The position numbers were made by a program, and so were the translations under genes. From Candidatus Enterousia sp. (GTDB lineage: Bacteria; Pseudomonadota; Alphaproteobacteria; Rs-D84), in the NCBI GenBank assembly GCA_045593065.1, contig JAZNVZ010000005.1:37872-101871 (forward strand): DNA of 64,000 nt, written 5' to 3'. Shown here piece after piece: positions 1 to 24,146 of the stretch. The notes beneath the pieces were generated by a model. It did not search any database, was not told the DNA's origin, and worked only from the letters and a program-made list of their open reading frames with translations. The first letter of the stretch is position 1; the number at the start of each line of letters is the position of its first letter.

Positions 1-809
1 AACAGTTCCGGGTTTTTCACACTGCCTAACCGGGTTGAGCCACGCCCATACACAGGGTCGCACAATACCGGAAACCCGTGTGCAGATAAATGTACCCTGA
101 TTTGATGAGTTCGGCCAGTTAGCAAATTGCATTTGAAATGAGAAACACCCGCCCGCGCCCATGCGTCAACCACCATAACCTCGGTCGTGGCGGGTTTGCC
201 CCCAGATTTTACCATCGTCATTTTTTGACGATTCCGGGACGAACGCGCAATGTTCCCGGTTATTGTCGCAGATTCCCAATTCGGCACACCCCATACAAAC
301 GCATCATATTTACGGGTCAAATCGTGGGTCGAAAATATTTTTACCAATTCACGATATGCGGCATCCGTTTTCGCAAAGACCATAACGCCGGATGTATCTT
401 TGTCCAAACGATGAACCACCCCAGGTCGCACATCGCCACCCAATGATGACAAATTCGTATAGCACAACAGATTTTGAACCAATGTGCCTGTTTTGTTCCC
501 CGCAGATGGGTACATCACAACACCACGCGGTTTGTTTATGACAATGATATCATCGTCTTGGTATAAAATGTCCAAATCAAAATCACAAGATAAATTATCC
601 GCAGCCGCCGATGCACGCGGCGCGTCTGGCACAATAACAATATACAATTCGCCCGCCCTGACCTTGTCCGCCATTTTTACCGCCGCACCAGACCGCGACA
701 CCGAAAACTTTTGAATCTCGCTGCGTGAAAATTCTGGCATTTTATTGGCAAGAAATTTATCCAGGCGCAATCCAACATCGTCATCGTTCACAATAAATTC
801 ATGCTGCAT
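1..809 (-). CDS. rluD: RluA-family rRNA pseudouridine synthase (RluD-like); C-terminal end runs off the window
   Basis: Hand translation of the minus strand from ATG at 809: MQHEFIVNDDDVGLRLDKFLANK (S4-like N-term), HRLDKDTSGVMVFAKT catalytic-Asp motif, LLTGRTHQIRVHL. Absent from the ORF track because no stop lies inside the window. Confidence 0.85.
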   Translation of the reverse strand, partial: MQHEFIVNDDDVGLRLDKFLANKMPEFSRSEIQKFSVSRSGAAVKMADKVRAGELYIVIVPDAPRASAAADNLSCDFDLDILYQDDDIIVINKPRGVVMYPSAGNKTGTLVQNLLCYTNLSSLGGDVRPGVVHRLDKDTSGVMVFAKTDAAYRELVKIFSTHDLTRKYDAFVWGVPNWESATITGNIARSSRNRQKMTMVKSGGKPATTEVMVVDAWARAGVSHFKCNLLTGRTHQIRVHLSAHGFPVLCDPVYGRGSTRLGSVKNPEL

Positions 810-819
810 CAATATCCCT

Positions 820-1287
820 TTATTTATATTCACGCCAATCAGGCCCGCGCGTACATTTCGACAAATCAATCTTTAATTCATAATCGCCAGATACAGGACA
901 ATTTAAAACCCCAGTCGTTTCTGCCTGAATCGCATCAGCGGTCGCATTGCGCCATGCAAAACTGACCATTTTGGGTGCATGCACACACACCAATCGCAAT
1001 GTCCCAACTGCATCGCCACGCGGCGATACCCAGATGCGGACAGAGTCCGCCTCGCCATAACAGGGAAATGAATCCAGGTAATATAAAACCAAACCATTTT
1101 TTAACAATGCTGGGGTGCCACCGGAAAATTTTCCTGTGTATTGCGATAACGGTAAACCCGTAACCCCAGCCCAATCAACAGTTGTGGAAAATAAACTGAC
1201 CCGTGGGGCAGGCGGTATCGTGTTTATGTCGTCTGCAAACGCAGGTATACAAATTAAACACAACAAAAGTGCAACCAATTTTTTCAT
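820..1287 (-). CDS. Hypothetical secreted protein, 155 aa, 4 mature Cys
   Basis: ORF with Sec signal MKKLVALLLCLICIPAFA|DD. 4-nt overlap with the upstream ORF and 10 nt before rluD. No family recognised. Confidence 0.6.
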   Translation of the reverse strand: MKKLVALLLCLICIPAFADDINTIPPAPRVSLFSTTVDWAGVTGLPLSQYTGKFSGGTPALLKNGLVLYYLDSFPCYGEADSVRIWVSPRGDAVGTLRLVCVHAPKMVSFAWRNATADAIQAETTGVLNCPVSGDYELKIDLSKCTRGPDWREYK

Positions 1288-1796
1288 TTTTCAAAATCCC
1301 CCAATTTCACAACAATCTTTTTAACACCCACAGACGGCGCACGCAATGTATAAACAAACGGTACACGCGCACCCGCGTCCAGTAATGTCGCCGGCGGATT
1401 AAATTGTTCGCCACTGTTTATTTGACGGCCATCCCCATCATATGTTACTACTATCAAATTTGGCGCACCGTAAATTGCATCAGTCCTGTTTTCTAGAATC
1501 CCAGATACAATGAAATGTTTTATGCCATTTGCATCAGGTGCCAATTCTGTTTTTACAATCGATGCAACCAGTGGATTTTTTACCACAGAATTTGCACGAT
1601 AATGCGTTATCACCACAATCGTAAATATTATCGCAGACAGTAATGCACACACCGCCGCCAGAAAAACCATAAATTGATTCTTGCGATTCGGGGTTCGAAC
1701 CATCCAACGATGACCACAAATTGCACACCGCACAGGCGTTGCTGGAATTTTATCCAATGTATATTCTGTTTTACAAAAATCGCATTTTATCTTCAT
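1284..1796 (-). CDS. Zinc-ribbon (MJ0042-type) membrane protein with DUF3426-like C-terminal domain
   Basis: MKIKCDFCKTEYTL..VRCAICGHRW (CxxC..CxxC), then TM helix FMVFLAAVCALLSAIIFTIVVI, then a beta-rich C-domain. ATG at 1796 preferred; GTG at 1817 is possible. Confidence 0.65.
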   Translation of the reverse strand: MKIKCDFCKTEYTLDKIPATPVRCAICGHRWMVRTPNRKNQFMVFLAAVCALLSAIIFTIVVITHYRANSVVKNPLVASIVKTELAPDANGIKHFIVSGILENRTDAIYGAPNLIVVTYDGDGRQINSGEQFNPPATLLDAGARVPFVYTLRAPSVGVKKIVVKLGDFEK

Positions 1797-1820
1797 GTTA
1801 ACACCATTATATATCACAAT

Positions 1821-3137
1821 TTATTGCAATTTCAACAAACTATATTTTGCACGAACATCTGCGGCAATTCCAGATAATGCGTTCAGGTAATCTGCGGCGG
1901 TCGCGTTTGGATTGCTGACCAATGCAGCAAATCGGCGACCGGCCGTGGTTTTCGAATCAAATTCTGCATGCCCCAGATATGAAATCATACGATTTAAATC
2001 CCCCAGATACAGGTCTGCAAAACTGGCCGTGCCCGCCACAGCATCCCAATAATAATTCGAATTCGATGGGTCCAGAACTTTACTGGCCACGGTTAATCGC
2101 GGCGTGACAGAACCTGCATAACCAACCGTTACTTGCATGGCATTAATACTGCCATAACGCATACGCAACGAACCGTTAACTGTTAAAATTACAGGTTTGG
2201 CATCTGGGTTGTCGATGGTCAATGCCGGCAATGTCAAATTCGTTACATATAAATCATTCGTGGTGAACGATGAAAATTTTCCTGTGTCTGTTAATGATAA
2301 ACGGCCAGATATTTCCATGCCCCTGGAATCAGATGTCAATATACCTGATACAGTTGCGGTCTTGGTATAAAATTCGCCGTCAATCGTGGTGCGATTATCA
2401 AATATTATTTCCCGAGATTTAATTTTACTGACCGTTAAAAATTCATCAAACGAACCAGACATAAAATTTACATTCGCCGCCCCAACAATATCACGTCCCC
2501 CAAGGTTTAATGCAGAACGCATCGTTGCATCTTCGGCATTATCAGTCGGCATGCGCCACAAATATAACGCGTTATCACGATTAACCGGCGTGGTACTGAC
2601 AATGCCGCGGTCTGCATTCACACCTAAATCAGCCACAGACGCATGCCATGCCCCATTTGCGCCGTATGCCTGGTTGCCTTGGACGAAACCAACATGACCA
2701 CCCGCCAGATTCAAAATTTGATGTGTACGAAACGGCGTAATTTTATCAGAATCATAAACCACAACACCCTGCAAAGTTGATTGACCTTGGAAATCGCGCG
2801 ATTTAACAACGCGTAATTGGTATTTGTTTTCTGGATTGTTTATAATACCGTCTGGTAATCCATATTGTTCTAAGGCCGTCATTTCAACACGAATAATACG
2901 CCGTCCGCCAGATTGCATCAATGTTTCGCGATTTTCAATAATGTATCTTTCCAGCGCATTTTGAACATCAGTCATTTGTTTTGTAATTGCAATATTTTCA
3001 CTGCGCTCAATCGCAGCGCGTTGATATTTAAAAACAAACGGAATTATTAACATCGCGATTGCAACACTCAACAACAATTCAACCAGCATATTTCCGCTTT
3101 GTGATTTATGCGATAAAAATTTATCTTTCTTGTTCAT
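1821..3137 (-). CDS. Large prepilin-like protein (438 aa), class III signal, paralog 3
   Basis: N-term MNKKDKFLSHKSQSG|NMLVELLLSVAIAMLIIPF (Gly -1, Glu +5, hydrophobic helix). Shares motifs with the two upstream ORFs. Directly abuts the previous stop (3138). Confidence 0.7.
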   Translation of the reverse strand: MNKKDKFLSHKSQSGNMLVELLLSVAIAMLIIPFVFKYQRAAIERSENIAITKQMTDVQNALERYIIENRETLMQSGGRRIIRVEMTALEQYGLPDGIINNPENKYQLRVVKSRDFQGQSTLQGVVVYDSDKITPFRTHQILNLAGGHVGFVQGNQAYGANGAWHASVADLGVNADRGIVSTTPVNRDNALYLWRMPTDNAEDATMRSALNLGGRDIVGAANVNFMSGSFDEFLTVSKIKSREIIFDNRTTIDGEFYTKTATVSGILTSDSRGMEISGRLSLTDTGKFSSFTTNDLYVTNLTLPALTIDNPDAKPVILTVNGSLRMRYGSINAMQVTVGYAGSVTPRLTVASKVLDPSNSNYYWDAVAGTASFADLYLGDLNRMISYLGHAEFDSKTTAGRRFAALVSNPNATAADYLNALSGIAADVRAKYSLLKLQ

Positions 3138-4397
3138 TTATTGACCCACACTTTCTTTGGTTTGCCAATCACTGGACATAATTGCACTGAATTCGTCCTT
3201 GTTCGGTGTTGGTGTTATTTTTGCACGACCAATTTTCAAACTAGCAAATGACGGTAGTTGATTTGATGGAAATGACCAACCCCCAATTCTTAATGGCGCA
3301 ACCCCAGAAACCAACAATTCCCCAGATACAGTTATACCAAAATCGCCATAAAACATCATATCCCCCGCATTTACATATGGGGTGTATACCGAATTAGATG
3401 ATATGGCAGTAAACGAATCGATTGTTCTGCTGGTTGATGATTTTATTTTGAATAAATTTCCAATTTTTACAGAATTTTTAACCACAGCCCTGTCCGCAAT
3501 TATCGCCCCAGAATTACTGAAACTGTTGCCATTTAAATTATCTGCGGTAATTGTATTAAAACCACTGATGTCGCCCAATGCACGAATTGTTTCGATTGTG
3601 GCGTATGTTCCTTGAATATTAGCGCCCGATGAAAAATAAACAGAATCCGCATTAACATCATCGCCGCGAATAAATGTTGCATTTGTGTTTTTTGCAACCA
3701 CAGAATTTGCATCCAGTGCGCCAACATTCAATATGTCTTTGCCGCCCATATTTAAATTACGAAACATCGCATTAAGGTTGTTTGTTTTATCTGGGGTGTC
3801 GGTATTTTTATTTTTTGATGTCGCATCGCCACTGGTTGTGTCTGTTGCGCTGCGATGTAAAAAGTTTGTCCTGTCTTGGGTAGAAAAATTATGTGATATG
3901 CGATAAATCAAAAATCCCGGTTCAAATTGGGGCGCAGATACCGCCCAATTATTACCGTATGCAATTCCATCTTCGCCAACAACGGCGGCATCACTGCCAA
4001 TTTGATGTGCAATTTGATTTGTACGAACCGCAGATTTTGATATATCAAACGCCAAATATATATCTGTAATTGTTGTGTCGTTATATTTACGCCGGTCAAT
4101 AATTCCAGCCGTAATAGACGGTGAAATTTCTTGCAAATTTTCAGGGGTCAAAATGATTTCAATCGTATCGGGCCAATCCTGTTGATTTGTGCGCACAAAG
4201 TTTAATGTATCATTTTGCAAATCAACAATTTTCTGTGCCATCGATATATTTGCAATATCGTTATGAGTGTTTTGGATTTGCTTGTACATAAAAGGTGCCG
4301 CAACAGCAATAATTGATATGGTTAAAACAACCTCTATCAACGATGCACCACGCGACACATTATTAAAAATTTTTGTTTTAGATACAATCACTGCCAC
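3138..4397 (-). CDS. Large prepilin-like protein (419 aa), class III signal, paralog 2
   Basis: N-term ..KIFNNVSRG|ASLIEVVLTISIIAVAAPF (Gly -1, Glu +5). Central NLNMGGKDILNVG motif. 20-nt overlap with the upstream ORF. Confidence 0.7.
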   Translation of the reverse strand: MAVIVSKTKIFNNVSRGASLIEVVLTISIIAVAAPFMYKQIQNTHNDIANISMAQKIVDLQNDTLNFVRTNQQDWPDTIEIILTPENLQEISPSITAGIIDRRKYNDTTITDIYLAFDISKSAVRTNQIAHQIGSDAAVVGEDGIAYGNNWAVSAPQFEPGFLIYRISHNFSTQDRTNFLHRSATDTTSGDATSKNKNTDTPDKTNNLNAMFRNLNMGGKDILNVGALDANSVVAKNTNATFIRGDDVNADSVYFSSGANIQGTYATIETIRALGDISGFNTITADNLNGNSFSNSGAIIADRAVVKNSVKIGNLFKIKSSTSRTIDSFTAISSNSVYTPYVNAGDMMFYGDFGITVSGELLVSGVAPLRIGGWSFPSNQLPSFASLKIGRAKITPTPNKDEFSAIMSSDWQTKESVGQ

Positions 4398-5733
4398 CTG
4401 CCATTAAACATTGTTTTGCGTTTATTCTTTGTTCTAGTCGCATCCAAAATAAATATTCGCACAATATATGTTGTGCCAACGATGCAGAATTATATGTTTC
4501 GCCCACAGCATTTACAACCGTTTTACAATCCATTGTTGCATCATCATCGCGTTTAGGATTTTTTAAAATTGCAAACGCATCATTATTTATGCCGTCAACC
4601 TGAACATCTGGCAATACGGTGGTACCCGCAGGACGAATATCAATAATCGCCGCACCTGTTTGACCAGAATCCAATGCACGCGATGTTTGATCGCGCAAAG
4701 TAATATGCGATGCAACCATATTATCCACAGTTATTCCGCTGGTTGCGTTGTATGTTATATTGTCGTCATTGATATACGCATCTTGACCACTGCTGACATT
4801 CAAATAAGACCCAACCTCTAGGCGTTCAACCGCCAATGCGACATAATCTGTTTCCATACTGCCACGGACATCCCATTTAATTGGCCCTGTAAAACCCGTA
4901 TAGCCCGCCGTGATATCAAAAGAATCAACGGATGCAGAATTTGATTCAAAATTTCCTGTACTGCCATATCGAGAAACAGTTTTTCCAAAAACATTGTTTG
5001 CCTTTAACGAACCGCGCGTTAACGCCAACGCAGAACCGCCAGATTTTGATTGAAATATTGTCTTGCCCGCCGATAATTTTTGAATTTTATTTTTAGAATT
5101 TCTTTCTGTTTCATTCCCAAATATATTTAATGTGTCAAACGCGGCTGTTTCCGCAACCAGATTATGCCCAATAACATTATTAATGTTTTCAATGGAAAAA
5201 TTATTCATATCTAAATCTGTTAAAAATGCAGAATTCAACACATCCGATTCGTTGCGGCGAACAACATCTTGATATAATGTATTTAACGGCACCCCAACCA
5301 TCAACCCAGATGTTGTGCGTTCTGCATAAAAACCGATTCTGCGAACCATTTCTGCAATTTGCATCCCGGTTAATTTTCCACCGTCTATCATCAATGTACC
5401 ACCAACGCCAGTATCATCTTTGTCCACAACCAAATAAATATTTTGGCCAAACGCAGTTTGTGGAATATATCCCAATGGTAATCCATACGGTTCCAATGTA
5501 TCTGCAAAATCATTACCACTAATTATTGTTTTCCCATATGGCAAAGTATCAACATTTTCACGAATAAAAATACGCGCCGCAGTCCCCGCAACATCAATCT
5601 GGTGCACAGAAGAATACATTTTGGCATCTATATCATTTGCAATCATGCGGTTTGTTAAAACCGGCACAAACACAAACATCAACGATATTGCCAATAATGC
5701 TTGTAATAAAAAATTTCCCTGCTGTGTACGCAC
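4378..5733 (-). CDS. Large prepilin-like protein (451 aa), class III-like signal, paralog 1; Cys-rich C-terminus
   Basis: GTG start. MRTQQG|NFLLQALLAISLMFVFVPVL (Gly -1, Gln at +5). EPYGLPLG and DLDMNNFSIENINNV motifs shared with the paralogs. 4 Cys in the last 60 aa. Confidence 0.65.
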   Translation of the reverse strand: MRTQQGNFLLQALLAISLMFVFVPVLTNRMIANDIDAKMYSSVHQIDVAGTAARIFIRENVDTLPYGKTIISGNDFADTLEPYGLPLGYIPQTAFGQNIYLVVDKDDTGVGGTLMIDGGKLTGMQIAEMVRRIGFYAERTTSGLMVGVPLNTLYQDVVRRNESDVLNSAFLTDLDMNNFSIENINNVIGHNLVAETAAFDTLNIFGNETERNSKNKIQKLSAGKTIFQSKSGGSALALTRGSLKANNVFGKTVSRYGSTGNFESNSASVDSFDITAGYTGFTGPIKWDVRGSMETDYVALAVERLEVGSYLNVSSGQDAYINDDNITYNATSGITVDNMVASHITLRDQTSRALDSGQTGAAIIDIRPAGTTVLPDVQVDGINNDAFAILKNPKRDDDATMDCKTVVNAVGETYNSASLAQHILCEYLFWMRLEQRINAKQCLMAGGSDCI

Positions 5734-5891
5734 CCCCGATTCCCCTACATCAAAACAATTTATATATGTTTAGGTTAGCAACAGAAAAAAAATATTGCAA
5801 TCAGTTTTAAGATGATTTATGATTATTTTGTTGTCGGTTGATTTTTATAAATAATAACCGTATTTTTAACTTAAATTATAAAAGAACAAAA

Positions 5892-6227
5892 ATGCAAAAT
5901 AAAAAAAATCAGTCATCTGTTGGTTTGATGATTCAACGTTGTCATAAATGGCGCATGCGCCGGAAACAATTAACTGACCAGGCACGCACAACCGCGGACG
6001 AAATTGAACGCGAACGGCTGCTCCAGGCGGCAGAACATTGTGTCCGTATGACAAACGCTGAACAGGAAAAAATTGATTCTATGCGCGACAGCAAAGACAA
6101 GGCCGCCGTGGCTGAGGCCGAGGCCGCCGTTGCCGCCGCTGAAAAAGGTGCAAACGAAAATGCTGACACCAAACAGGATGAAGATGAAGAAATGGGCTTT
6201 CCTGATTTCATAACAAATTTGAATTAA
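5892..6227 (+). CDS. Hypothetical small coiled-coil protein with acidic C-terminal tail
   Basis: ORF 5838-6227; ATG at 5892 preferred. Charged helical sequence ending DEDEEMGFPDFITNLN. No clear SD. Overlapped by two antisense ORFs, so coding status is uncertain. Confidence 0.4.
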   Translation: MQNKKNQSSVGLMIQRCHKWRMRRKQLTDQARTTADEIERERLLQAAEHCVRMTNAEQEKIDSMRDSKDKAAVAEAEAAVAAAEKGANENADTKQDEDEEMGFPDFITNLN

Positions 6228-6298
6228 AAACTTGTTCACTTAATTGTTGAAATTTTACTTTTCTTTGGTATGCTGAATACCACAAGGAAAGTTTTAAC

Positions 6299-7834
6299 AT
6301 GGACAATAATTATACAGTACTGGCACGCAAATACCGCAGTCAAGATTTTAAATCGCTGATTGGACAAGATGTTTTGGTAAAAACACTGACCACGGCCATT
6401 AACACTGGACGTATTGCACACGCATATATTTTTACAGGAATTCGGGGAACTGGAAAAACCAGTACTGCGCGAATCCTGGCCAAGGCGTTAAATTGCTTGT
6501 CGGCAAATGGTCCAACCGCCGAGCCATGTGGCGTATGCGAAAATTGTCGTGCGATTGCGGCGGGTCAACATATTGATGTTATGGAAATTGATGCGGCATC
6601 GCATACCGGCGTTGATAATATTCGCGATATTTTGGATGCGGCACAATATCGTCCAACAAACGGTCGATACAAGGTATATATAATTGACGAAGTACATATG
6701 TTATCAACCGCGGCGTTTAATGCGTTGTTAAAAACACTGGAAGAACCACCTGCACATGTCATATTTATTTTGGCAACAACCGAAATTCGCAAAGTACCAA
6801 TTACTATATTGTCGCGCTGTCAACGCTTTGATTTGGTTCGTGTGCCTGTTGAAACATTAAAAAAACATTTTGCATGGATTGCATCCCAAGAAAATATTGA
6901 TTTATCAGATGCCGCAGACGAATTATTGGCGCGCGCCGCCGATGGTTCTGTGCGCGATGGATTATCTTTGTTGGACCAGGCAATCGCACAAACCGGTGGC
7001 CATGTTGATGAACAATCTGTGATGGAAATGTTAAAACGCGCAGACCGTAATGTCGTTGTTGATTTTATGGATACTATTTTATCTGGGGATACGGCGCGGG
7101 CGTTGGAAATGACAGATACAATTTATACAAATGGCGCCGATTTAACAATGCTGTTGACAGATATGATGGAATGGACCCATTGGGCAACACGCATGCATCC
7201 AGCCATTAACGCAGGCGAATGCACCAGTTCACCATATACCGCTGACCAACGCGAAAAAATTCGCAATATTGATGCACGCGTGTCATTAAATACCCTGTCC
7301 CGTGTTTGGCAGGTTATGGTGGCTGCTGTCAGCGAAATGCAGGTTGCCGGAAATCAAAAACAATGTTTTGATATGCTGGTTGTGCGAATGATGCATATTG
7401 CCGATATGCCATCTGTCGCAGAAATATTGAAAAACAATACTGTTGCGCAAACTGTACCACAACCTGCCAAGGTCGCAGAATCAAAACCTGTGGTTAACAA
7501 CACAATAAATTCCGCAGATGAATTGGGTGCCGCAATGCAAAATGACAAACAGATATTGTTATACACATACTTTTGTGAAAATATCGAGGTGTGCAATATC
7601 GAAAACGGCAAATTAAATTATTTCGACAGAAAAGGCGACCCAGATTTTGCACATAAATTGGCAACATGGTTGGAACAACACACTGGCAAACGATGGGTGT
7701 TAGAACATTCTGCAACATCTTGCAATATGCCAACGGCGGTTGAACATAAACAGCAAGAATTGGCGGCTGACCCAATGATGGCCAGTGCAATGGGATTGTT
7801 CGAGGGCGCAGAAATAATCAATGTATCTAAATAA
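6299..7834 (+). CDS. dnaX: DNA polymerase III subunit gamma/tau
   Basis: GIRGTGKTSTARILAKALNC Walker A, Zn module CGVCENCRAI, VYIIDEVHMLS Walker B, SRCQRFD sensor. Confidence 0.95.
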   Translation: MDNNYTVLARKYRSQDFKSLIGQDVLVKTLTTAINTGRIAHAYIFTGIRGTGKTSTARILAKALNCLSANGPTAEPCGVCENCRAIAAGQHIDVMEIDAASHTGVDNIRDILDAAQYRPTNGRYKVYIIDEVHMLSTAAFNALLKTLEEPPAHVIFILATTEIRKVPITILSRCQRFDLVRVPVETLKKHFAWIASQENIDLSDAADELLARAADGSVRDGLSLLDQAIAQTGGHVDEQSVMEMLKRADRNVVVDFMDTILSGDTARALEMTDTIYTNGADLTMLLTDMMEWTHWATRMHPAINAGECTSSPYTADQREKIRNIDARVSLNTLSRVWQVMVAAVSEMQVAGNQKQCFDMLVVRMMHIADMPSVAEILKNNTVAQTVPQPAKVAESKPVVNNTINSADELGAAMQNDKQILLYTYFCENIEVCNIENGKLNYFDRKGDPDFAHKLATWLEQHTGKRWVLEHSATSCNMPTAVEHKQQELAADPMMASAMGLFEGAEIINVSK

Positions 7835-7855
7835 TTTATGATATTGGGGGGACAA

Positions 7856-8314
7856 ATGAAAACAGAATCAGGACGTTCTTTGATTGAAATGCTGGGGGTG
7901 TTGGCGATTGGCGGCGTGATGACGGCGGCGGCATATGGTACATATCACATGTTGCGCACATCACAAACACGGAACTTGGCAATATCACATATGGAACAAA
8001 TTGCACGCAATACAAAAATATTGTTAGAAATGCGCGGCGATTACAGTCCTGTGTCGATTGATTATTTAATAAAAAATGGTGCATTAACAGATAACATCGC
8101 GCCTATTGGTGGTGATAATTGGTCAATTACGCCTGGGGTTCGTGGCGAAACATTCGCGATAAACCTGACAGATTTGTCCCAGGGCGATTGCATATATTTT
8201 GCAACCAAAGAAATAAAATGGGCTTTGCAAGTTAATGTGAACAATATTCCAAACGGCCGCAGCGAAAGTTGTATGTCTGCGCCAAAAAATTTAATATCTG
8301 TTATTGTTAAATAA
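7856..8314 (+). CDS. Type IV pilin-like protein (normal size, about 152 aa)
   Basis: MKTESG|RSLIEMLGVLAIGGVMTAAAY (Gly -1, Glu +5). C-terminal Cys pair (GDC..ESC) like a pilin D-region. GGGGGG SD-like run before ATG 7856; the ORF could start at 7838. Confidence 0.7.
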   Translation: MKTESGRSLIEMLGVLAIGGVMTAAAYGTYHMLRTSQTRNLAISHMEQIARNTKILLEMRGDYSPVSIDYLIKNGALTDNIAPIGGDNWSITPGVRGETFAINLTDLSQGDCIYFATKEIKWALQVNVNNIPNGRSESCMSAPKNLISVIVK

Positions 8315-8317
8315 AAA

Positions 8318-8989
8318 ATGAATTTGAAATTTGTTCTTGTATGTTTGTGTTTAGGCGGGTGTATGCAATACACCAGTCCGCCGCACGAAACATGGGCACA
8401 ATATTTGAATGGCGCCAGTTTCATGGACATGAACGAAACAACAAAATTGGCAAAACGGCCTGTGTTTTTGGGTCATGGTGGGAATGTATTAAAAACAGAT
8501 TATGCAAACAATCCAACATTGGAATACGGCGACAAGGCAACAAACGACAGTATTGCTGGACGGGAATATATGGCAAAATTGGAATACGATTTATATGATG
8601 CTTTGCGCACCGCAGGGGTATCTGTGGAACGCGCAGGCACAGATGTTGTTGTGATTTTGGTGCGCAATGCAATCATGAAAAATGATGCCGCCGATATTTC
8701 TGGTAATGGCGATGATATTTTATCAACCGTTGCACGCATTTTAAGAAAATACGATTCAACATATCTGGAAATCGCAGGATATACAGACGCAATGCGCGAT
8801 GCCACCGCGGCAAAACGCATGTCGTTGGACATGGCACAGCGTGTTGGTGTATTTTTATCCCGTAAAGAAATTAAACCGGTGCGGATGTTTATTGTGGGAC
8901 GCGGTTCGGCGCGCCCGATTGCCGCCCAAGATAGCATCGGGCGATTAACCAATCGTAGGGTTGAAATCCGCATTGCCCCCGCACGATAA
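8318..8989 (+). CDS. OmpA/MotB-family peptidoglycan-binding lipoprotein
   Basis: Lipobox LCLGG|C. C-terminal OmpA-like domain LEIAGYTD..AAKRMSLDMAQRV..GRGSARPIA..RLTNRRVEIRI. Confidence 0.8.
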   Translation: MNLKFVLVCLCLGGCMQYTSPPHETWAQYLNGASFMDMNETTKLAKRPVFLGHGGNVLKTDYANNPTLEYGDKATNDSIAGREYMAKLEYDLYDALRTAGVSVERAGTDVVVILVRNAIMKNDAADISGNGDDILSTVARILRKYDSTYLEIAGYTDAMRDATAAKRMSLDMAQRVGVFLSRKEIKPVRMFIVGRGSARPIAAQDSIGRLTNRRVEIRIAPAR

Positions 8990-19293: not shown

Positions 19294-19946
19294 TGCATCA
19301 CCCGTGATATTGTAATTGGCCCCGCCAATTCTGCACGCAAAATTGTTTTACCCAACGATATCCCGCGGGCACCATTTTTATCCAACATATCAAATTCACT
19401 GTCCGCAAATCCACCTTCGGGACCAACCAAAACATTTTTTACATTTTTATAATTTTGTGGCAATTCGCGACCATATGCCGCCCTTTCGTCTGCAAAGACC
19501 AATTCCGCAAATGGCAAATCGACAAACTTAATTGGCGATGCAATTTCAGGCACACTGTTGCGATTTGATTGTTCGGCGGCCTGGGCCACTATCGTTTTCA
19601 TACGCCCCCAATTTATGTGATTTGCCACCGTGTGTTCCGTTATCACAGGCACAAATTTTTTCACACCCATTTGGGTCGCCATGTTTAACATATCATCCAT
19701 ACGCTTTATCGGTGCAAAATACAATGTGATATCGTTTGACGGGTCAATGTGCCCTGTTTTTTCACCAACAATCACGGATTTGCCGTCACCTGTTAATTCA
19801 GCCCTATATTCATTACCATCACCAAAGACCAAACAATCATTTCGGCGCATAACGCGCAACAAATAATGCGACACAGATTTATCAATCGGTATCATAATAC
19901 CGGTTTTAATATTTGTGCCGATAAAAATTCTTGGTATGTTTTTCAT
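19290..19946 (-). CDS. rsmE: 16S rRNA (uracil1498-N3)-methyltransferase
   Basis: RsmE-type C-terminus VLVGPEGGFADSEF..GISLGKTILRAE; 4-nt overlap with the next gene. Confidence 0.85.
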   Translation of the reverse strand: MKNIPRIFIGTNIKTGIMIPIDKSVSHYLLRVMRRNDCLVFGDGNEYRAELTGDGKSVIVGEKTGHIDPSNDITLYFAPIKRMDDMLNMATQMGVKKFVPVITEHTVANHINWGRMKTIVAQAAEQSNRNSVPEIASPIKFVDLPFAELVFADERAAYGRELPQNYKNVKNVLVGPEGGFADSEFDMLDKNGARGISLGKTILRAELAGPITISRVMQ

Positions 19947-19973
19947 TTCGTGATTTATCTTTGGTTGTTTTTC

Positions 19974-19982
19974 TGGTATAAT
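19974..19982 (+). promoter_or_regulatory. Candidate extended -10 (TGgTATAAT) for the T4CP operon
   Basis: TGGTATAAT 10 nt before ATG 19992; no good -35 seen. Confidence 0.35.
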
Positions 19983-19991
19983 AATAACACC

Positions 19992-22262
19992 ATGGCAGAG
20001 AAATTCAAGATTTTATCCGCAGGCGGTTCATCCAAAGGGCTGAATATTTTCAAATCAACCGCCTATAAAGAGCACGAGGCAGGACCAATGGCCCAGATGT
20101 TCTGGGTGTTTCGTTGGAATGCGTCAATGTGGTTGATATGCGCGGTGGCATTTGCCCTGGCATTTATTGTTGAACATTTAATACGGTATGGTTGGTCGCC
20201 GGCATCTATGCATTGGGCTGGGCTGTTTTTGCACGATGCGTTTCGCACACTGGGGTTGTCCGTGATTGCAACAGTACCCGGATGGTTGGCACGGTGTTTA
20301 ATGCGGCCTGACCTGGCATGCGCGATACCATTGTTGCCGATTATTGCATTTTATTTTGTGTCCGACAACACATTGACCAAGGAATTTAATCCGCATGGGT
20401 CTGACATGTACGATTCAAAATCTTCGCGCAAGGCAACCGCCGCAGACATCAAACAAATGGGTAAAAACTGGAAAAATAAAGAGGGATTGTTTAACGGTTT
20501 TATGATGGTTTTAGGTTATTTCAAGGACGGTAAAAAAACAAAACCATTAATGCTGGACGAAACATTATCTGTGTTGTGTGTTGCGCCCCCGGGGTCTGGT
20601 AAAACAAAGGCGGTGGTGGAACCAACAATCGTTGAATGCGATACTGTATCCATGATTATTAATGACCCAAAGCCAGAATTAAGACAGAGTACATCTGGGT
20701 ATCGCGCAACAATCGGGCCAGTGTTTATTATGAACTGGGCAGGTCAAGATGACCCAGAACGCGGTATATATTACCCATCTTGGAATCCGCTGTCCCCAGA
20801 ACATGTGCCATTTGAAACCGAACAACGCGATTTGTATATCGATACAATTTGCAAAGTGTTGGTGCCAGATGCCACAGGGTCATCGGCTGACCCACATTGG
20901 TCAATATCTGGTCGCGCAGGATTGTCCGGGTTTATTCAATACATTGTGTCCAAGGTTGAACGCGCCAAGGCAGATGATTATTTTTACGCGCGTCTGCAAT
21001 CGGGCGAATTTAATCAAGAAGATTCAAATGTTTTGTTGGAATATTACCTGAGCATGTCCAACAATCCAAATGCCTATGCGGCAATGGGATTGTTGCAACA
21101 CGGCGAATTAAACGCAATGAATTATGTTCATGTTGGAACATGGCAAAATATCCCAGATGCATGGGTTGGGCGCGAGGCATCGTTGTCCATGATTTTGGAT
21201 TGGTTAAACGCATCACAGTTGGCAAATGCCGCAGAATTAGAAGAACGCCGCAAACAAGGCGATCAAATGGTGGCATTGGCTGACCCAATGAAAGATGTAT
21301 TAGAAGGCGCCGTAAACGAGGCCGTAGAATACGCGTACGCACACCGTGCGGTGTTGGAATTAACACAACTGGCGAATACGCCTGACAAAGAACGCGGGTC
21401 AATTTTATCAACAATTATGGCGGGACTGGGGGTGTTCCGTAATGCCGCAGTACGCAACAGAACATCGCATTCCGATTTCCATTTCGAAGACCTGCGCGGA
21501 CTGCGCGACCCACGCGATGGCAAGATTAAACCTGTATCGGTTTATCTGTCTATTAATATGGTTGATGCCCAAGCATTAAATCCAATCACGGGTATCTTTA
21601 TTGAATTAATGTCTAACTATTTATTGGTAAATACCCCAGACGCAATCGGTTCAAACGGAAAAAAATTAGGGCCATACCCTGTGTTATTCGTGTTGGACGA
21701 AATGCCAAAAATGCAAAAACTGGATGCGGTTATCCAGGGGCCAGATTTGGGACGCGGACAAAAGATTTCTTACCTGATTATCGGCCAGGATATTCACCAG
21801 ATTCAAGAAAAATACGGCGCAGATGCCGCCGCCACAATTATTTCAACAACCGCCGCAAAAATTATCATGCGGCAAAATGACTATGAAACCGCAGACAGAT
21901 TTTCTCAAATGATTGGTAACGAAATTAAAAAAGAAAAGAAATATGATAAAGACGGTAAAGAAACCGAAGAAACAAAAACACCAAAACCATTGTATTCGCC
22001 AATGGACATTATGACATTGCCCGAAGAAAAACAAATCGTTTTATATCAAGGGTATTACAATAGACCTATTGAAGCCAGCCAAGAAAGATGGTACAAAATG
22101 AAAACTGATATTCAAAAATCTATTGCTGCCAAAATCGCACTGGGCGAAAGTGCGCCAATGCCGGAATTTTTGGTATCAAAACATTGCAAGGCGATGGGAT
22201 ACAAAGGGGAAATTCGTTTTATGGATCCAACAACCAAAACAATAAAAGTGTTGGCTGAATAG
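19992..22262 (+). CDS. VirD4/TraG-family type IV coupling protein (T4CP) ATPase
   Basis: N-terminal TM helices, Walker A LCVAPPGSGKTKAVVEP, Walker B YPVLFVLDEMPKM, IIGQDIHQIQEKYG. ATG 19992 chosen because the 19866 extension overlaps rsmE. Confidence 0.85.
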   Translation: MAEKFKILSAGGSSKGLNIFKSTAYKEHEAGPMAQMFWVFRWNASMWLICAVAFALAFIVEHLIRYGWSPASMHWAGLFLHDAFRTLGLSVIATVPGWLARCLMRPDLACAIPLLPIIAFYFVSDNTLTKEFNPHGSDMYDSKSSRKATAADIKQMGKNWKNKEGLFNGFMMVLGYFKDGKKTKPLMLDETLSVLCVAPPGSGKTKAVVEPTIVECDTVSMIINDPKPELRQSTSGYRATIGPVFIMNWAGQDDPERGIYYPSWNPLSPEHVPFETEQRDLYIDTICKVLVPDATGSSADPHWSISGRAGLSGFIQYIVSKVERAKADDYFYARLQSGEFNQEDSNVLLEYYLSMSNNPNAYAAMGLLQHGELNAMNYVHVGTWQNIPDAWVGREASLSMILDWLNASQLANAAELEERRKQGDQMVALADPMKDVLEGAVNEAVEYAYAHRAVLELTQLANTPDKERGSILSTIMAGLGVFRNAAVRNRTSHSDFHFEDLRGLRDPRDGKIKPVSVYLSINMVDAQALNPITGIFIELMSNYLLVNTPDAIGSNGKKLGPYPVLFVLDEMPKMQKLDAVIQGPDLGRGQKISYLIIGQDIHQIQEKYGADAAATIISTTAAKIIMRQNDYETADRFSQMIGNEIKKEKKYDKDGKETEETKTPKPLYSPMDIMTLPEEKQIVLYQGYYNRPIEASQERWYKMKTDIQKSIAAKIALGESAPMPEFLVSKHCKAMGYKGEIRFMDPTTKTIKVLAE

Positions 22263-22266
22263 TTTT

Positions 22267-23526
22267 ATGAAAAAATTCTTGTTCGTTTTTTGTGTGTGTT
22301 GTTTTTTGGTTGGATGCGCAGATGTCGCAACATCTAATTTGCGCGGTGTACGAAATTCTTTTGCAAATGATAATTTTGTTGAATCAGCGAACAAATTTGC
22401 TGAACACAAAGATATTCAAAATCAAAATAATTTGGAATTGCTGATAACAGGTCTGGCACAGTTTCAGGCAAAAAATTACAAAATCAGCGATAAAACATTC
22501 GAAGAATTTAACAAACGAAATATCAATACCACCAGCGGCAGCATCGCACGCGAAACAAAAAAATTGGTATTTGGACAAATGGCAACTGAATATAAACCGT
22601 CTATGATGGATTCGTTGTTTGTATCATATTATCAAATATGGGATGCAGTTGGTGAAAATCGGCGCGATGATGTGCGTGTAATCATCAACCAATCTTATGC
22701 GCGCCAGCAAGATATGTCGCGCGAATATGCTGATTTAGTACAAAAAAATACCGAACGCATAAACAAAAACAACAACGAATTGATGACCACATTACAAAAT
22801 CAAAATTCACAATGGGCGGCATATACAGATATTATGAACCCTGCGTTAATGTATTTATCTGGGGTTTGGTTTTTGAACACGGGCGATTTCAATGATGCTG
22901 TGGATTATTTAAAACGCGCAAATGGCATGGTGCAAAGCAACAAATTTATCACCACAGATTTATCTTTGGCTGAACACAACCAAAAACCACGCGATACAAC
23001 ATGGATATTTGTTGAATCTGGTTTTGCGCCAATGTTAAAGCAAGAAACATTGTCTTTTCCTGTTATCAGTGGCAAAGGTGTGATTATGGCATCTATTGCG
23101 GTTGCAGAACCTGTATTTTGGAACGGTTCGGTAAAATTTCCGGGTGCCCTGCCCTTGGCCGATGTGAACGCAATGTTTATGACTGAATTTAACCAGTACA
23201 GAATCAACGATGCTTTGCGCGCATGGGGGGCGGCATCTGCGCGCGCGATTGCCCAGGCCGCCGCATATAATTCAAACAGCCGATTTTCCGAACTGTTGGG
23301 ATTGGGAACAACGATATATTCACTGGCAACAACAAACGCAGATGTGCGTTCATGGGCAACACTGCCAGAAAATATCAGTGTTTTACGATTAAAAACAGCT
23401 GACTTGATTGATTCAAATTTAAATGCTATGATTGACCCGAATGTGAAATTACCAACATCTGGAAATTATTTAATTTATGTGCGATTAACAAATGGCAAAC
23501 CTGTCGTGCATATATTCAAAATATAA
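22267..23526 (+). CDS. Hypothetical lipoprotein with TPR-like helices (419 aa)
   Basis: Lipobox FLVG|C. 4 nt after the T4CP stop. From memory it resembles the uncharacterised COG3014-type lipoproteins that pair with LpoB-like genes. Confidence 0.65.
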   Translation: MKKFLFVFCVCCFLVGCADVATSNLRGVRNSFANDNFVESANKFAEHKDIQNQNNLELLITGLAQFQAKNYKISDKTFEEFNKRNINTTSGSIARETKKLVFGQMATEYKPSMMDSLFVSYYQIWDAVGENRRDDVRVIINQSYARQQDMSREYADLVQKNTERINKNNNELMTTLQNQNSQWAAYTDIMNPALMYLSGVWFLNTGDFNDAVDYLKRANGMVQSNKFITTDLSLAEHNQKPRDTTWIFVESGFAPMLKQETLSFPVISGKGVIMASIAVAEPVFWNGSVKFPGALPLADVNAMFMTEFNQYRINDALRAWGAASARAIAQAAAYNSNSRFSELLGLGTTIYSLATTNADVRSWATLPENISVLRLKTADLIDSNLNAMIDPNVKLPTSGNYLIYVRLTNGKPVVHIFKI

Positions 23527-23540
23527 CCAAAGGAGAAAAC

Positions 23541-24146
23541 ATGAAAAAATTATTACCAATCGCTGTGCTGGCCGTTTTAACAGGATGCGGCGGGACACGC
23601 GTTGTAGATTTAGAAAACGAACGCGAAGTTCAATCTATGCAAGATGTTATGGAATTAGAATATCGTGATTGGACCAAAACCGCTGAATATATGACAACAT
23701 CTATGTTAAACAGCAATGCGTTAAATCGCGTTAAAAATCCTGTGATTGCGGTCGCAAATATTAAAAACGATACTATGCAAAGATTTGATACAGATATTTT
23801 GATTAAAAAAATTCGCACAACAATCATGAAATCTGGACGCGCACAAATCGCAACAAACTTTACAAGCGAAGACACCACCAGCAACACAGTGCGTAATATT
23901 CGTGGCAATAATGAATATGACCAGTCGACATTTGCACAACAAGGCACATTGATTGCGCCAAACATGTCGCTGTCTGGGAAAATGATTCAACGCAATTTGA
24001 AATTGGAATCTGGGTGGTTTTCATCGGTTGATACCCGCGTAGAATATTATCTGCAACTGACACTGACAGATTTGAAAACAGGTTTATCTGTGTGGGAAGA
24101 TGAACAACCAATCATCAAAGAAGGAAATCACGCACCAACATGGTAA
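23541..24146 (+). CDS. LpoB/COG3417-like outer-membrane lipoprotein
   Basis: Lipobox LTG|C. PVIAVANIKNDT..., NMSLSGKM...YYLQLTLTDLKTGLSVWE pattern, typical of the LpoB-like fold (recalled from memory). Confidence 0.6.
   Translation: MKKLLPIAVLAVLTGCGGTRVVDLENEREVQSMQDVMELEYRDWTKTAEYMTTSMLNSNALNRVKNPVIAVANIKNDTMQRFDTDILIKKIRTTIMKSGRAQIATNFTSEDTTSNTVRNIRGNNEYDQSTFAQQGTLIAPNMSLSGKMIQRNLKLESGWFSSVDTRVEYYLQLTLTDLKTGLSVWEDEQPIIKEGNHAPTW

What the first reader, a model, noticed from the sequence alone, without database searches (positions are those of the whole stretch)
820..5733. Operon of three tandem giant prepilin-like paralogs plus a Zn-ribbon membrane protein and a secreted Cys protein, with no filament-assembly genes in 64 kb
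Seen: five minus-strand ORFs (4378-5733, 3138-4397, 1821-3137, 1284-1796, 820-1287) are packed with 0-24 nt gaps or overlaps, so they look like one transcription unit that runs on into rluD. The first three (451, 419 and 438 aa) each open with a short basic leader ending in Gly, followed by a hydrophobic helix of about 20 aa: MRTQQG|NFLLQALLAISLMFVFVPVL, ..NNVSRG|ASLIEVVLTISIIAVAAPF and ..HKSQSG|NMLVELLLSVAIAMLIIPF. Glu is at +5 in two of them and Gln in one. They are clearly paralogs, sharing (Y/F)IxENxxTL, ExYGLPxG, and a central LxMGGxDIxN-type motif. Established: Gly(-1)/Glu(+5) plus a hydrophobic helix is the class III signal cleaved by prepilin peptidase in type IV pilins and T2SS pseudopilins. 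Non-Phe +1 residues and long leaders are type IVb-like, and loss of Glu5 is typical of tip-located minor (pseudo)pilins. Inference: at about three times normal pilin size, and in triplicate, these could form a filament tip or adhesin complex, or an undescribed pilin-anchored surface module. The co-transcribed MJ0042-type Zn-ribbon/DUF3426-like membrane protein and the small secreted 4-Cys protein have no known role in pilus biology. No PilB/GspE ATPase, PilC/GspF platform, PilD peptidase or secretin gene is present anywhere in the window.
Basis: partly seen in the sequence, partly recalled or inferred. Interest (0 to 1): 0.75.

Follow-up and report, generated by a model that had tools for sequence, protein, structure and literature searches.

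The report
Three PilV-like pilus tip proteins
An uncultured gut bacterium with a tiny genome (Candidatus Enterousia) carries a conserved operon of three large pilus tip/adhesin-type proteins related to PilV of conjugative plasmids. The main pilin gene sits next door, and in related genomes the assembly motor lies elsewhere on the chromosome, so this is an unusual variant of a known pilus type rather than an orphan system.

Summary
Five tightly packed minus-strand genes (P1–P5) run into rluD, and the block is conserved in 80 of 80 related loci. P1, P2 and P3 are true but distant paralogs. Gly(-1) is invariant across about 80 species; Glu(+5) is invariant in P2 and P3, and Gln(+5) in P1.

They are not an unknown class. 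P3 matches Pfam Shufflon_N above its cut-off and matches plasmid PilV, the type IVb thin-pilus tip adhesin (437 aa, the same size class), at BLASTP E 7.5e-11.

The absence of assembly genes is true for the window but is not a puzzle. Related genomes encode a PilO / PilP-like / ATPase / platform operon on the same contig, about 110 kb away. In one genome it is contiguous with the pilin and the trio.

No prepilin peptidase or secretin was found in any sequence I held, and the window's own genome could not be checked. There are no shufflon repeats and no recombinase.

Best reading: a chromosomal, dispersed R64-type type IVb pilus whose three PilV paralogs form a tip or priming complex, probably for attaching to partner cells. 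This is a new variant of a known kind, of moderate interest.

The parts
4378..5733 (-). P1, 451 aa. A PilV-family-like minor prepilin with a 6-aa leader (MRTQQG|NFLLQ), invariant Gln at +5 and four invariant C-terminal Cys. It is the candidate tip-most subunit.
   Evidence: ORF. N-terminus conserved in 75 orthologs. Invariant C403, C425, C442 and C450. Profile homology to the P3 family, 97.9% probability, E 5e-13 over about 215 columns. AF2 model: alpha1 helix 8-59 plus an alpha-beta domain to about residue 150 at pLDDT about 80; the rest is below 50.
3138..4397 (-). P2, 419 aa. A minor prepilin and full-length paralog of P3, with a 17-aa leader (..VSRG|ASLIE) and invariant Glu+5.
   Evidence: ORF. 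hhalign against the P3 family: 100% probability, E 5e-47 over 377 columns. N-terminal motif conserved in 79 orthologs. N_methyl 14.2 bits, below the 21.2 cut-off. One variable low-complexity linker at about residues 181-210.
1821..3137 (-). P3, 438 aa. A PilV-family (Shufflon_N) minor prepilin with a 15-aa leader (..SQSG|NMLVE) and invariant Glu+5.
   Evidence: Shufflon_N 29.2 bits against GA 27.5. 16 of 44 family members hit it, best E 2.8e-11. BLASTP to plasmid PilV: E 7.5e-11, 27% over 280 aa from the N-terminus. tblastn hits 734 plasmid records, and all listed matches fall on pilV. The PDB profile search hits only type IV pilins, in register. AF2: alpha1 helix 14-68 plus an alpha-beta domain.
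1284..1796 (-). P4, 170 aa. A bitopic membrane protein: cytoplasmic MJ0042-type CxxC...CxxC zinc ribbon, one TM helix, and a periplasmic FxLYD/DUF3426-like beta domain.
   Evidence: TIGR02098 24.0 bits against a cut-off of 20.9; FxLYD 23.0 against 23; DUF3426 12.9, below 27.7. Four invariant zinc-ribbon Cys. Present in 80 of 80 loci. Weak match to the GltJ/AgmX zinc ribbon, PDB 7zok, E 0.01.
820..1287 (-). P5, 155 aa. A secreted or periplasmic protein with a signal peptide, a conserved mature N-terminal motif (PR-V/I-S-I/L-FST-S/T-x-DW) and four invariant Cys.
   Evidence: Present in 80 of 80 loci. Alignment and invariant columns. No Pfam family above threshold and no PDB relatives.
1..809 (-). 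rluD (5' part; it runs off the window). Last gene of the same transcription unit, probably a passenger and not part of the pilus function.
   Evidence: Translation. PseudoU_synth_2 in L086. Downstream of P5 on the same strand in 79 of 80 loci, with a median distance of 27 nt between BLAST hits.
5734..5837 (.). 104-bp divergent intergenic region between P1 and the DUF4167-dnaX-pilin unit. This is the presumed promoter region for both units.
   Evidence: Gene coordinates. The consensus promoter scan is at chance level, so no promoter is shown.
7856..8314 (+). PilS-like type IV pilin and candidate major subunit. The ORF opens at 7838, but the conserved start is Met7 at 7856. It has a 6-aa leader (MKTESG|RSLIE), invariant Glu+5 and an invariant Cys118/Cys145 pair. 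It lies 21 nt after the dnaX stop.
   Evidence: N_methyl 20.4 bits (cut-off 21.2) and PilS E 0.014 for the window copy. 12 of 15 orthologs hit PilS (best E 1.1e-5) and 10 of 15 hit N_methyl. Alignment. Conserved in 71 of 80 loci; the rest are cut contigs.
8318..8989 (+). OmpA-domain lipoprotein, 223 aa, starting 3 nt after the pilin stop. It may anchor the machinery to peptidoglycan, or it may simply be a neighbour.
   Evidence: OmpA PF00691, E 1e-9; YiaD-like. Conserved after the pilin in 71 of 80 loci. It lies between the pilin and PilO in L091.
6299..7834 (+). dnaX, a housekeeping gene that heads the plus-strand unit containing the pilin gene.
   Evidence: ORF. DNA_pol3_delta2 and DNA_pol3_gamma3 families in L086. 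Conserved in 74 of 80 loci.

Best explanation
The operon encodes three paralogous minor pilins of the PilV family, the large tip or adhesin pilins of IncI/R64-type type IVb 'thin' pili. They belong to a chromosomal pilus system of Candidatus Enterousia (Alphaproteobacteria, order Rs-D84, genomes under about 1 Mb) whose genes are spread over several loci.

Shown:
- All three have conserved class III signal sequences.
- P3 is a PilV homolog, and P1 and P2 are its paralogs.
- A PilS-like pilin gene lies 2.1 kb away.
- Related genomes carry a PilO / PilP-like / T2SSE ATPase / T2SSF platform operon on the same contig. In one genome it is contiguous with the pilin and the trio.
- The trio, in the same gene order, is also found in a more distant lineage.

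Inferred:
- After cleavage by a prepilin peptidase (not located), P1, P2 and P3 associate through their N-terminal pilin domains into a 1:1:1 complex. This complex primes polymerisation of the PilS-like pilin and ends up at the filament tip.
- P1, which has Gln instead of Glu at +5, is the top subunit. This resembles GspK, and also the reference PilV, whose N-terminus (G|NAQLM) likewise lacks Glu5.
- The conserved C-terminal domains of the trio form the binding surface. This probably attaches these metabolically dependent cells to a partner, and may dock the co-encoded secreted protein P5 in the way TcpB and CofB trimers dock TcpF and CofJ.
- P4 would be an inner-membrane accessory factor.
For: - Conserved signal: G(-1) is invariant in all families; Glu(+5) is invariant in P2 and P3, and Gln(+5) in P1, across 75-81 orthologs, and down to 26% identity for P3 relatives.
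- PilV homology: Shufflon_N above GA for P3 and for 16 of 44 family members. BLASTP to PilV gives E 7.5e-11. 734 plasmid matches, all listed ones on pilV. The reference PilV is 437 aa.
- The PDB profile search returns only type IV pilins, aligned at the cleavage motif.
- Paralogy by profile comparison.
- PilS-like pilin next door.
- Machinery: ATPase homologs at 85-100% identity across the clade, with 'longest contig' lengths that match block-bearing contigs (247,423 = L060; 315,805 = L038; 232,853 = L074; 370,382 = P0103). The operon is PilO (PAP_PilO 35.2 bits, above 26.7), PilP-like (TIGR03021 34.3 bits against 34.65), ATPase and platform, matching R64-type PilQ and PilR at 4e-41 and 3e-30. 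One genome has everything contiguous.
- The block is conserved in 80 of 80 loci. The L082 trio is one-to-one orthologous in the same order.
- All five proteins are under uniform purifying selection.
- Lifestyle context: PMC12306168.
- TcpB/TcpF and CofB/CofJ precedent: PMC9565799.
Against: - No prepilin peptidase (A24) and no secretin were found in 1.76 Mb of held sequence from this clade, including both sides of the machinery operon. Cleavage and passage through the outer membrane therefore remain unshown.
- The machinery operon was not demonstrated in the window's own genome, only in related species.
- P1 and P2 do not reach any pilin Pfam or NCBIfam threshold on their own.
- The AF2 models are of moderate (P3, pLDDT 67) or poor (P1, 53.5) quality, and Foldseek gave no significant match.
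- Heterotrimer formation, tip location, adhesion and P5 docking are all inference. Uniformly conserved C-termini are unlike the variable C-termini of shufflon PilV.
- A published survey did not report type IV pili for Rs-D84.
Confidence: 0.6

Rival explanations
1. The system works mainly as a secretion piston, like TCP or a T2SS. The trio caps a short filament that pushes the co-encoded secreted protein P5 (and perhaps others) out of the periplasm. Adhesion is secondary.
For: P5 has a signal peptide, is present in 80 of 80 loci, and has a strongly conserved aromatic-containing motif at its mature N-terminus. In TCP and CFA/III, the N-terminal segment of TcpF or CofJ, with a critical aromatic residue, binds the minor-pilin trimer and is exported by pilus growth (PMC9565799). 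The ATPase scores best against GspE among NCBIfam models, though far below the cut-off.
Against: P5 has no detectable similarity to TcpF or CofJ, or to any solved structure. P4 and P5 are absent next to the trio in the distant lineages L082 and L084, so the trio's core role does not need them. No secretin was found. This reading does not exclude the best explanation.
Confidence: 0.2
2. This is a mating or DNA-transfer pilus, as in R64, where the PilV-tipped thin pilus stabilises mating pairs for a type IV secretion system. Here it would serve the chromosomal VirB/VirD4 system or DNA uptake.
For: The closest characterised relatives (PilV, PilS, PilO, PilP) belong to the IncI conjugative thin pilus. 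A VirD4/TraG-like coupling protein is in the window at 19866-22262. VirB3 and VirB4 lie 7 kb from the pilus operon in L089.
Against: There is no relaxase, shufflon, Rci recombinase or plasmid context. The T4SS genes are not adjacent to the pilin block. The genes sit in core housekeeping neighbourhoods that are conserved across at least 80 species. No competence genes were examined.
Confidence: 0.15
3. The proteins are not processed or polymerised at all. They are bitopic inner-membrane or surface proteins that keep a pilin-like N-terminal anchor, a relic of a degraded pilus system.
For: No prepilin peptidase or secretin was found in any held sequence. The genomes are heavily reduced.
Against: G(-1) and Glu(+5) are invariant across very divergent orthologs, which is hard to explain without cleavage and filament packing. 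The ATPase is conserved at 85-100% identity and the platform, PilO and PilP-like genes are intact. The genomes show no pseudogene accumulation. Only a small fraction of each genome was searched.
Confidence: 0.1

Closest known systems
PilV (with PilS and PilO/P/Q/R) of the IncI1/R64-type type IVb thin pilus
   Same: - P3 matches Shufflon_N and PilV from the N-terminus over about 270 residues.
- The size is the same (419-451 aa against 437 aa).
- The neighbouring pilin is PilS-like.
- The machinery gene order PilO, PilP-like, ATPase, platform matches pilO-pilP-pilQ-pilR.
- The reference PilV also has Asn at +1 and lacks Glu5, as P1 does.
   Different: - The system is chromosomal and split over at least two loci among housekeeping genes.
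- There are three fixed paralogs instead of one gene with shufflon-switched C-termini.
- There are no sfx-type repeats and no Rci recombinase.
- The C-termini are conserved, not variable.
- No PilN secretin, PilU peptidase, PilL, PilM or PilT was found nearby.
- The pilin has a short 6-aa leader.
TcpB/TcpF (Vibrio cholerae TCP) and CofB/CofJ (ETEC CFA/III) type IVb minor pilin plus secreted partner
   Same: Large multidomain type IVb minor pilins that sit as a trimer at the pilus tip and initiate assembly. A small secreted protein encoded in the same operon binds the trimer through its N-terminal segment (PMC9565799, PMC6048534, PMC5207764). Here there are three large minor pilins plus a co-encoded secreted protein with a conserved N-terminal motif.
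   Different: No sequence similarity to TcpB, CofB, TcpF or CofJ was detected. Those are homotrimers of one gene, whereas here there are three distinct paralogs. Trimer formation and P5 binding are untested.
T2SS minor pseudopilin tip complex GspI-GspJ-GspK (own knowledge; Xcp models appeared as non-significant Foldseek hits)
   Same: Three different pilin-like subunits form a tip complex that primes assembly, and the top subunit (GspK) lacks Glu5, as P1 does.
   Different: No hit to the T2SSI, T2SSJ or T2SSK families. The proteins are two to three times larger. The Foldseek matches to XcpGHIJK are at E 1.9-3.8, which is not significant.
Minor-pilin operons located far from the assembly genes, such as E. 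coli ppdA-ppdB-ygdB-ppdC, and the three pilin-like proteins BfpI/J/K of the type IVb bundle-forming pilus (own knowledge, not tested here)
   Same: Several minor pilins are encoded in tandem in one operon, and they can lie tens of kilobases from the ATPase, platform, peptidase and secretin genes.
   Different: Those proteins are small (about 150-200 aa) and are not PilV-like.

Membership tests
Type IV pilin class (class III signal / prepilin) | Gly at -1, Glu at +5 and a hydrophobic alpha1-N segment of about 20 residues after a short basic leader | tested here: met
   Invariant across 63-81 orthologs per family for P2, P3 and the 158-aa pilin. P1 has invariant Gly(-1) but Gln(+5).
Type IV pilin class (class III signal / prepilin) | Curated N-terminal methylation-motif models (Pfam N_methyl, TIGR02532) reached at threshold | tested here: not met
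   P2 scores 14.2 bits and the pilin 20.4 bits against a cut-off of 21.2; TIGR02532 gives 11.6 and 14.8 against 16.3; P1 and P3 have no hit. These are near-threshold scores on a 27-position model. 10 of 15 pilin orthologs hit at E <= 0.05.
Type IV pilin class (class III signal / prepilin) | Long N-terminal alpha1 helix packed on a beta-sheet globular domain | tested here: inconclusive
   AF2 predicts alpha1 at 14-68 (P3) and 8-59 (P1), each followed by an alpha-beta domain at pLDDT about 70-85. Whole-chain Foldseek finds no significant match.
Type IV pilin class (class III signal / prepilin) | Cleavage (and methylation) by an A24 prepilin peptidase encoded in the genome | not testable with these tools
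   No A24-like gene was found in the window or in about 1.7 Mb of related loci. Whole genomes could not be searched.
Type IV pilin class (class III signal / prepilin) | Assembly ATPase and platform protein in the same genome | tested here: inconclusive
   Met in related genomes: on the same 247-kb contig as the block, and contiguous in GCA_033345235.1. It could not be checked for the window's own genome, and the window itself has none.
PilV / Shufflon_N (PF04917) thin-pilus tip adhesin | Shufflon_N constant-region domain at or above the gathering score | tested here: met
   P3 scores 29.2 bits against 27.5. 16 of 44 family members hit it, best E 2.8e-11. BLASTP to PilV gives E 7.5e-11. P1 and P2 qualify only through profile homology to P3.
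PilV / Shufflon_N (PF04917) thin-pilus tip adhesin | Shufflon: multiple inverted sfx repeats and an Rci recombinase that switch the C-terminal segments | tested here: not met
   No repeat family beyond short chance matches in 1-6300. No integrase or recombinase among the window ORFs. The C-termini are conserved.
PilV / Shufflon_N (PF04917) thin-pilus tip adhesin | Encoded inside the pilL-V operon of an IncI-type conjugative plasmid | tested here: not met
   The context is chromosomal and housekeeping (dnaX, rluD, accBC, mreB, mutS), conserved in 80 loci.
T2SS minor pseudopilins GspI/J/K | Match to the T2SSI, T2SSJ or T2SSK families or the GspH/I/J/K equivalogs | tested here: not met
   No such hits for P1-P3 at E <= 1. 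The small pilin has only a weak GspH hit (15 bits against a cut-off of 80).
TcpB/CofB type IVb minor pilins | Sequence or fold relationship to TcpB or CofB, and homotrimer formation | tested here: not met
   Profile searches of the PDB with the P3 and P1 families do not retrieve TcpB or CofB, and Foldseek does not either. Oligomeric state could not be tested.
MJ0042-type zinc ribbon / FxLYD (DUF3426-like) membrane proteins (P4) | CxxC...CxxC zinc ribbon model TIGR02098, followed by a TM helix and an FxLYD or DUF3426 domain | tested here: met
   TIGR02098 24.0 bits against 20.9; FxLYD 23.0 against 23 (borderline); DUF3426 12.9, below 27.7. Four invariant Cys.

The most novel reading that the evidence does not exclude
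The three PilV paralogs form an obligate heterotrimeric tip, a pseudo-threefold counterpart of the TcpB and CofB homotrimers. This tip docks the conserved N-terminal motif of P5 and presents or delivers it to a partner cell. The dispersed type IVb pilus would then be the central host-contact and effector-delivery organelle of an obligately partner-dependent gut alphaproteobacterium, possibly working without a canonical secretin or with a non-canonical peptidase.
Probability: 0.15. Interest if true: 0.7.

Novelty: new variant of a known kind. Interest (0 to 1): 0.45.

Why it matters
Candidatus Enterousia (order Rs-D84) is a widespread, uncultured gut and rumen lineage. Its genomes are under 1 Mb and lack respiration, parts of glycolysis and standard transporters, and the lineage is thought to depend on partner organisms (PMC12306168). 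How it contacts partners is unknown, and the published survey did not report pili for it.

Several features mark this system as a leading candidate for the attachment organelle:
- In such a small genome, the trio, the accessory genes P4 and P5, a PilS-like pilin and a highly conserved assembly ATPase are all kept under purifying selection.
- The trio sits in a strictly conserved position between dnaX and rluD.

This gives concrete targets for antibodies, for FISH combined with cryo-electron tomography, and for enrichment strategies.

For pilus biology, it shows the plasmid-borne PilV/PilS thin-pilus family in a chromosomal, shufflon-free form with three fixed paralogs. That offers a natural test of whether type IVb tip complexes can be heterotrimers.

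Tried and rejected
- **Fold search:** whole-chain Foldseek of the AF2 models of P3 and P1 against the PDB gave nothing significant (best E 0.9). I did not count the weak PilS or Xcp pseudopilin entries as evidence.
- **First motif scan:** my strict Walker A regex for secretion ATPases found nothing because it missed the variant GPTSSGKST. The ATPase surfaced only through tblastn with a reference PilQ.
- **Extending the window:** exact-protein look-ups mostly failed. L086 added about 6 kb to the left and showed only rluD, a 1108-aa Cys-rich protein, L31 and PBP1.
- **Literature:** the 2023 Enterousia genome paper is not held, and the 2025 paper has no supplements held.
- **Shufflon hypothesis:** rejected. 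There are no repeat families and no recombinase.
- **Hypervariable adhesin C-termini:** rejected. Conservation is uniform.
- **Divergent prepilin peptidase among unannotated window ORFs:** rejected. The only multi-TM candidate (25654-26250) lacks a GxGD motif.
- **Promoter and terminator scans:** at chance level and uninformative.
- **P5 and P1 profiles against the PDB:** no relatives.
- **Window's own ATPase:** I could not show that the window's own species carries the ATPase operon. The top 120 ATPase hits all belong to the sister subgroup.

Full report
**1. Observation**

The five minus-strand ORFs exist as described: P1 4378-5733 (451 aa), P2 3138-4397 (419 aa), P3 1821-3137 (438 aa), P4 and P5 820-1287 (155 aa).

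The junctions are a 20-nt overlap, a 0-nt gap, a 24-nt gap and a 4-nt overlap. The rluD start codon follows 10 nt after the P5 stop.

The quoted N-termini are correct. Paralogy is real but distant:
- Pairwise BLASTP gives P2-P3 E 6e-9 over 320 residues, P1-P3 E 7e-7 over the N-terminal 138 residues, and P1-P2 not significant.
- Profile-profile comparison of ortholog families gives P2-P3 100% probability (E 5e-47, 377 columns), P1-P3 97.9% (E 5e-13) and P1-P2 95% (E 2e-8).

**2. Source organism and conservation**

Homologs of P3 and P1 number in the hundreds. All are named 'hypothetical', and all come from gut and rumen Alphaproteobacteria MAGs. A scan of one genome per species found 183 genomes with a P3 relative. 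The best 80 are Candidatus Enterousia and close kin.

These organisms (GTDB order Rs-D84) have genomes mostly under 1 Mb. They lack respiration, parts of glycolysis and standard transporters, and are proposed to depend on partners. The survey reports type IV pili for another lineage (UBA9783), not for Rs-D84 (PMC12306168).

Synteny is strict:
- P2, P3, P4 and P5 are present in order in 80 of 80 loci. P1 is present in 77; the three missing cases are cut contigs.
- rluD follows in 79 of 80.
- The divergent neighbour unit DUF4167-dnaX-(158-aa ORF)-OmpA-OmpH is conserved in 71-75 of 80.

**3. Are the N-termini class III signals?**

Across 75-81 orthologs per family:
- P1 reads (R/S/N)G|NFLLQALLA, with Gly(-1) and Gln(+5) invariant.
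- P2 reads G|ASxxEV, with Glu(+5) invariant.
- P3 reads G|(S/N/G)MLVELLLS, with Glu(+5) invariant.

For P3 relatives reaching 26% identity, Gly(-1) and Glu(+5) are among only ten invariant columns.

A profile of the P3 family searched against all PDB sequences returns only type IV pilins (geopilins, PilA), aligned in register at the cleavage motif (best E 0.0012).

The curated N_methyl and TIGR02532 models are not reached (P2 scores 14.2 bits against 21.2). Recognition therefore rests on conservation and homology, not on those short models.

**4. What family?**

P3 hits Pfam Shufflon_N (PF04917), the constant region of PilV, at 29.2 bits against a gathering score of 27.5. Sixteen of 44 family members hit it, with a best E of 2.8e-11.

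A tblastn search of 72,556 plasmids finds 734 records, and every listed match falls on pilV, annotated as 'shufflon system plasmid conjugative transfer pilus tip adhesin PilV'. Against one such PilV (437 aa), BLASTP gives E 7.5e-11, with 27% identity over 280 residues starting at the N-terminus.

So the 'giant' size is simply PilV size. That reference PilV begins MNKINQG|NAQLM, with Asn at +1 and no Glu at +5, as P1 does.

There is no shufflon here. I found no repeat families in 1-6300 and no recombinase in the window. Conservation is uniform along each protein, except for a low-complexity linker in P2.

**5. The missed pilin**

The ORF at 7838-8314 (+), 21 nt after the dnaX stop when counted from the conserved Met at 7856, is a pilin:
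- The leader is MK-x-E-x-G|(R/A)SLIE, with invariant Glu(+5).
- An invariant Cys118/Cys145 pair is placed like a D-region disulfide.
- The window copy scores N_methyl 20.4 bits (cut-off 21.2) and PilS E 0.014.
- 12 of 15 orthologs hit PilS (type IVb pilin, best E 1.1e-5), and 10 of 15 hit N_methyl.

It is followed 3 nt later by an OmpA-domain lipoprotein.

**6. Assembly genes**

Pfam on 51 further ORFs shows housekeeping genes plus a VirD4-like coupling protein. The unannotated ORFs include no peptidase-like protein.

A tblastn search with a reference pil operon then hit a secretion ATPase in one locus, L075 (E 4e-32). It has a GPTSSGKST Walker A and a CxxC motif.

Using it as a query returned ATPases of about 543 aa at 85-100% identity throughout the clade. 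Several of their longest-contig lengths equal those of block-bearing contigs: 247,423 = L060, 315,805 = L038, 232,853 = L074, and 370,382 = the P0103 contig.

On the 247-kb contig the operon lies at 122.8-144.4 kb and the pilin block at 2.4-23.7 kb. Its gene order is:
- a 138-aa lipoprotein;
- a 422-aa PilO-like protein (PAP_PilO 35.2 bits against 26.7);
- a 228-aa PilP-like protein (TIGR03021 34.3 bits against 34.65);
- a T2SSE ATPase;
- a T2SSF platform protein.

The ATPase and platform match R64-type PilQ and PilR at E 4e-41 and 3e-30.

In GCA_033345235.1 everything is contiguous: P3-P2-P1 faces DUF4167-dnaX-pilin-OmpA-OmpH-PilO-PilP-like-ATPase-platform.

No A24 peptidase and no secretin appear in any of the 1.76 Mb I held. 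I could not examine the window's own genome outside the window.

**7. Depth of the trio**

The deep profile search found 323 cluster representatives at E <= 0.001. These include proteins of 400-1200 aa that share only the N-terminal 220-270 residues.

Two distant contexts again show three tandem paralogs among housekeeping genes: 469/455/489 aa in L082 and 1236/1083/1188 aa in L084. All six N-termini are G|xxxxE.

Family HMMs assign the L082 genes one-to-one, in order, to P1, P2 and P3. So the triplication predates that split. P4 and P5 are absent there, which makes them lineage-specific additions.

**8. Structures**

- P3: AF2 mean pLDDT 67. It shows an alpha1 helix at 14-68, an alpha-beta domain to about residue 182 (pLDDT about 70-83), a beta-rich middle at about 55-60, and C-terminal helices.
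- P1: mean pLDDT 53.5. The N-terminal 150 residues are confident (alpha1 at 8-59 plus an alpha-beta domain), and residues 152-376 are below 50.

Foldseek against the PDB is not significant for either model.

**9. Mechanism**

Shown: PilV-family prepilins in triplicate; an adjacent PilS-like pilin; and R64-type PilO, PilP-like, ATPase and platform genes in related genomes.

Inferred:
- The trio forms a 1:1:1 priming and tip complex, and P1 (no Glu5) is on top.
- The conserved C-terminal domains bind a conserved ligand on a partner cell.
- P5 has a signal peptide, four invariant Cys and the conserved motif PR(V/I)S(I/L)FST..DW near its mature N-terminus. It may dock on the trio as TcpF and CofJ dock on TcpB and CofB trimers through an N-terminal aromatic-containing segment (PMC9565799).
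- P4 is a bitopic accessory protein whose zinc ribbon weakly resembles that of GltJ/AgmX (E 0.01).

The rivals are a secretion piston, a T4SS-associated mating pilus, and unprocessed membrane anchors. They are listed with their evidence in the rival explanations.

**10. Verdict**

The family is known (PilV), the size is normal for it, a pilin gene is adjacent, and the machinery is encoded elsewhere.

What is new:
- the setting, in a reduced-genome, uncultured gut alphaproteobacterium;
- the fixed, shufflon-free triplication, conserved as a trio across lineages;
- the dispersed layout of the system;
- the P4 and P5 accessory genes.

This is a new variant of a known kind. Interest is 0.45.

Noticed in passing
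window 19866-24146 (+): A VirD4/TraG-type T4SS coupling protein (798 aa; T4SS-DNA_transf E 9e-54). It is followed by a 419-aa lipoprotein with no Pfam hit and then a LpoB-family protein. In a related genome, VirB3 and VirB4 lie about 7 kb from the pilus assembly operon (L089 538-3263). These reduced genomes therefore keep a type IV secretion system as well as the pilus.
   Followed up: partly
L086 16006-19332 (just left of the window, downstream of rluD): An 1108-aa protein with no Pfam hit. It has a signal-like N-terminus, a run of 11 Thr, many Cys in repeated C-x-x-C-like contexts, and a C-terminal hydrophobic segment. It looks like a large surface protein. It is conserved in the second assembly of the same species (1099 aa in L087).
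   Followed up: no
window 7834-7856 and 5734-6299: The pilin gene is placed directly after dnaX, where ybaB and recR are more usual. A small DUF4167-like gene with a TTG start (5838-6227) separates dnaX from the divergent trio operon. The arrangement is conserved in more than 70 species.
   Followed up: partly
L075 / L091 (GCA_033345235.1, contig JAWPOC010000011.1): This is the only one of 80 genomes in which a rearrangement places the PilO / PilP-like / ATPase / platform operon directly after OmpH, making the whole system contiguous. In the other genomes accC or other genes follow OmpH.
   Followed up: yes
window 36747-38200 (+): Two adjacent secreted proteins with no Pfam hit. One is a 295-aa Ala/Thr/Gly-rich protein with a signal peptide, and the other is a 189-aa Cys-rich protein with a signal peptide.
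   Followed up: no
window 25654-26250 (+): A 198-aa protein with about six predicted TM segments and no Pfam hit. I checked it as a possible divergent prepilin peptidase, but it lacks a GxGD motif.
   Followed up: partly
window 28706-29767 (+): Two small ORFs (126 and 138 aa) with no Pfam hit lie between pnp and infC, in a slightly AT-richer stretch. Their origin is unknown.
   Followed up: no
L084 3551-14143 and L085: A distant lineage carries the trio as giants of 1236, 1083 and 1188 aa, with the same class III N-termini (G|GLLVE-type). Only the first 220-270 residues are homologous to P1-P3. The long C-terminal extensions are uncharacterised.
   Followed up: partly
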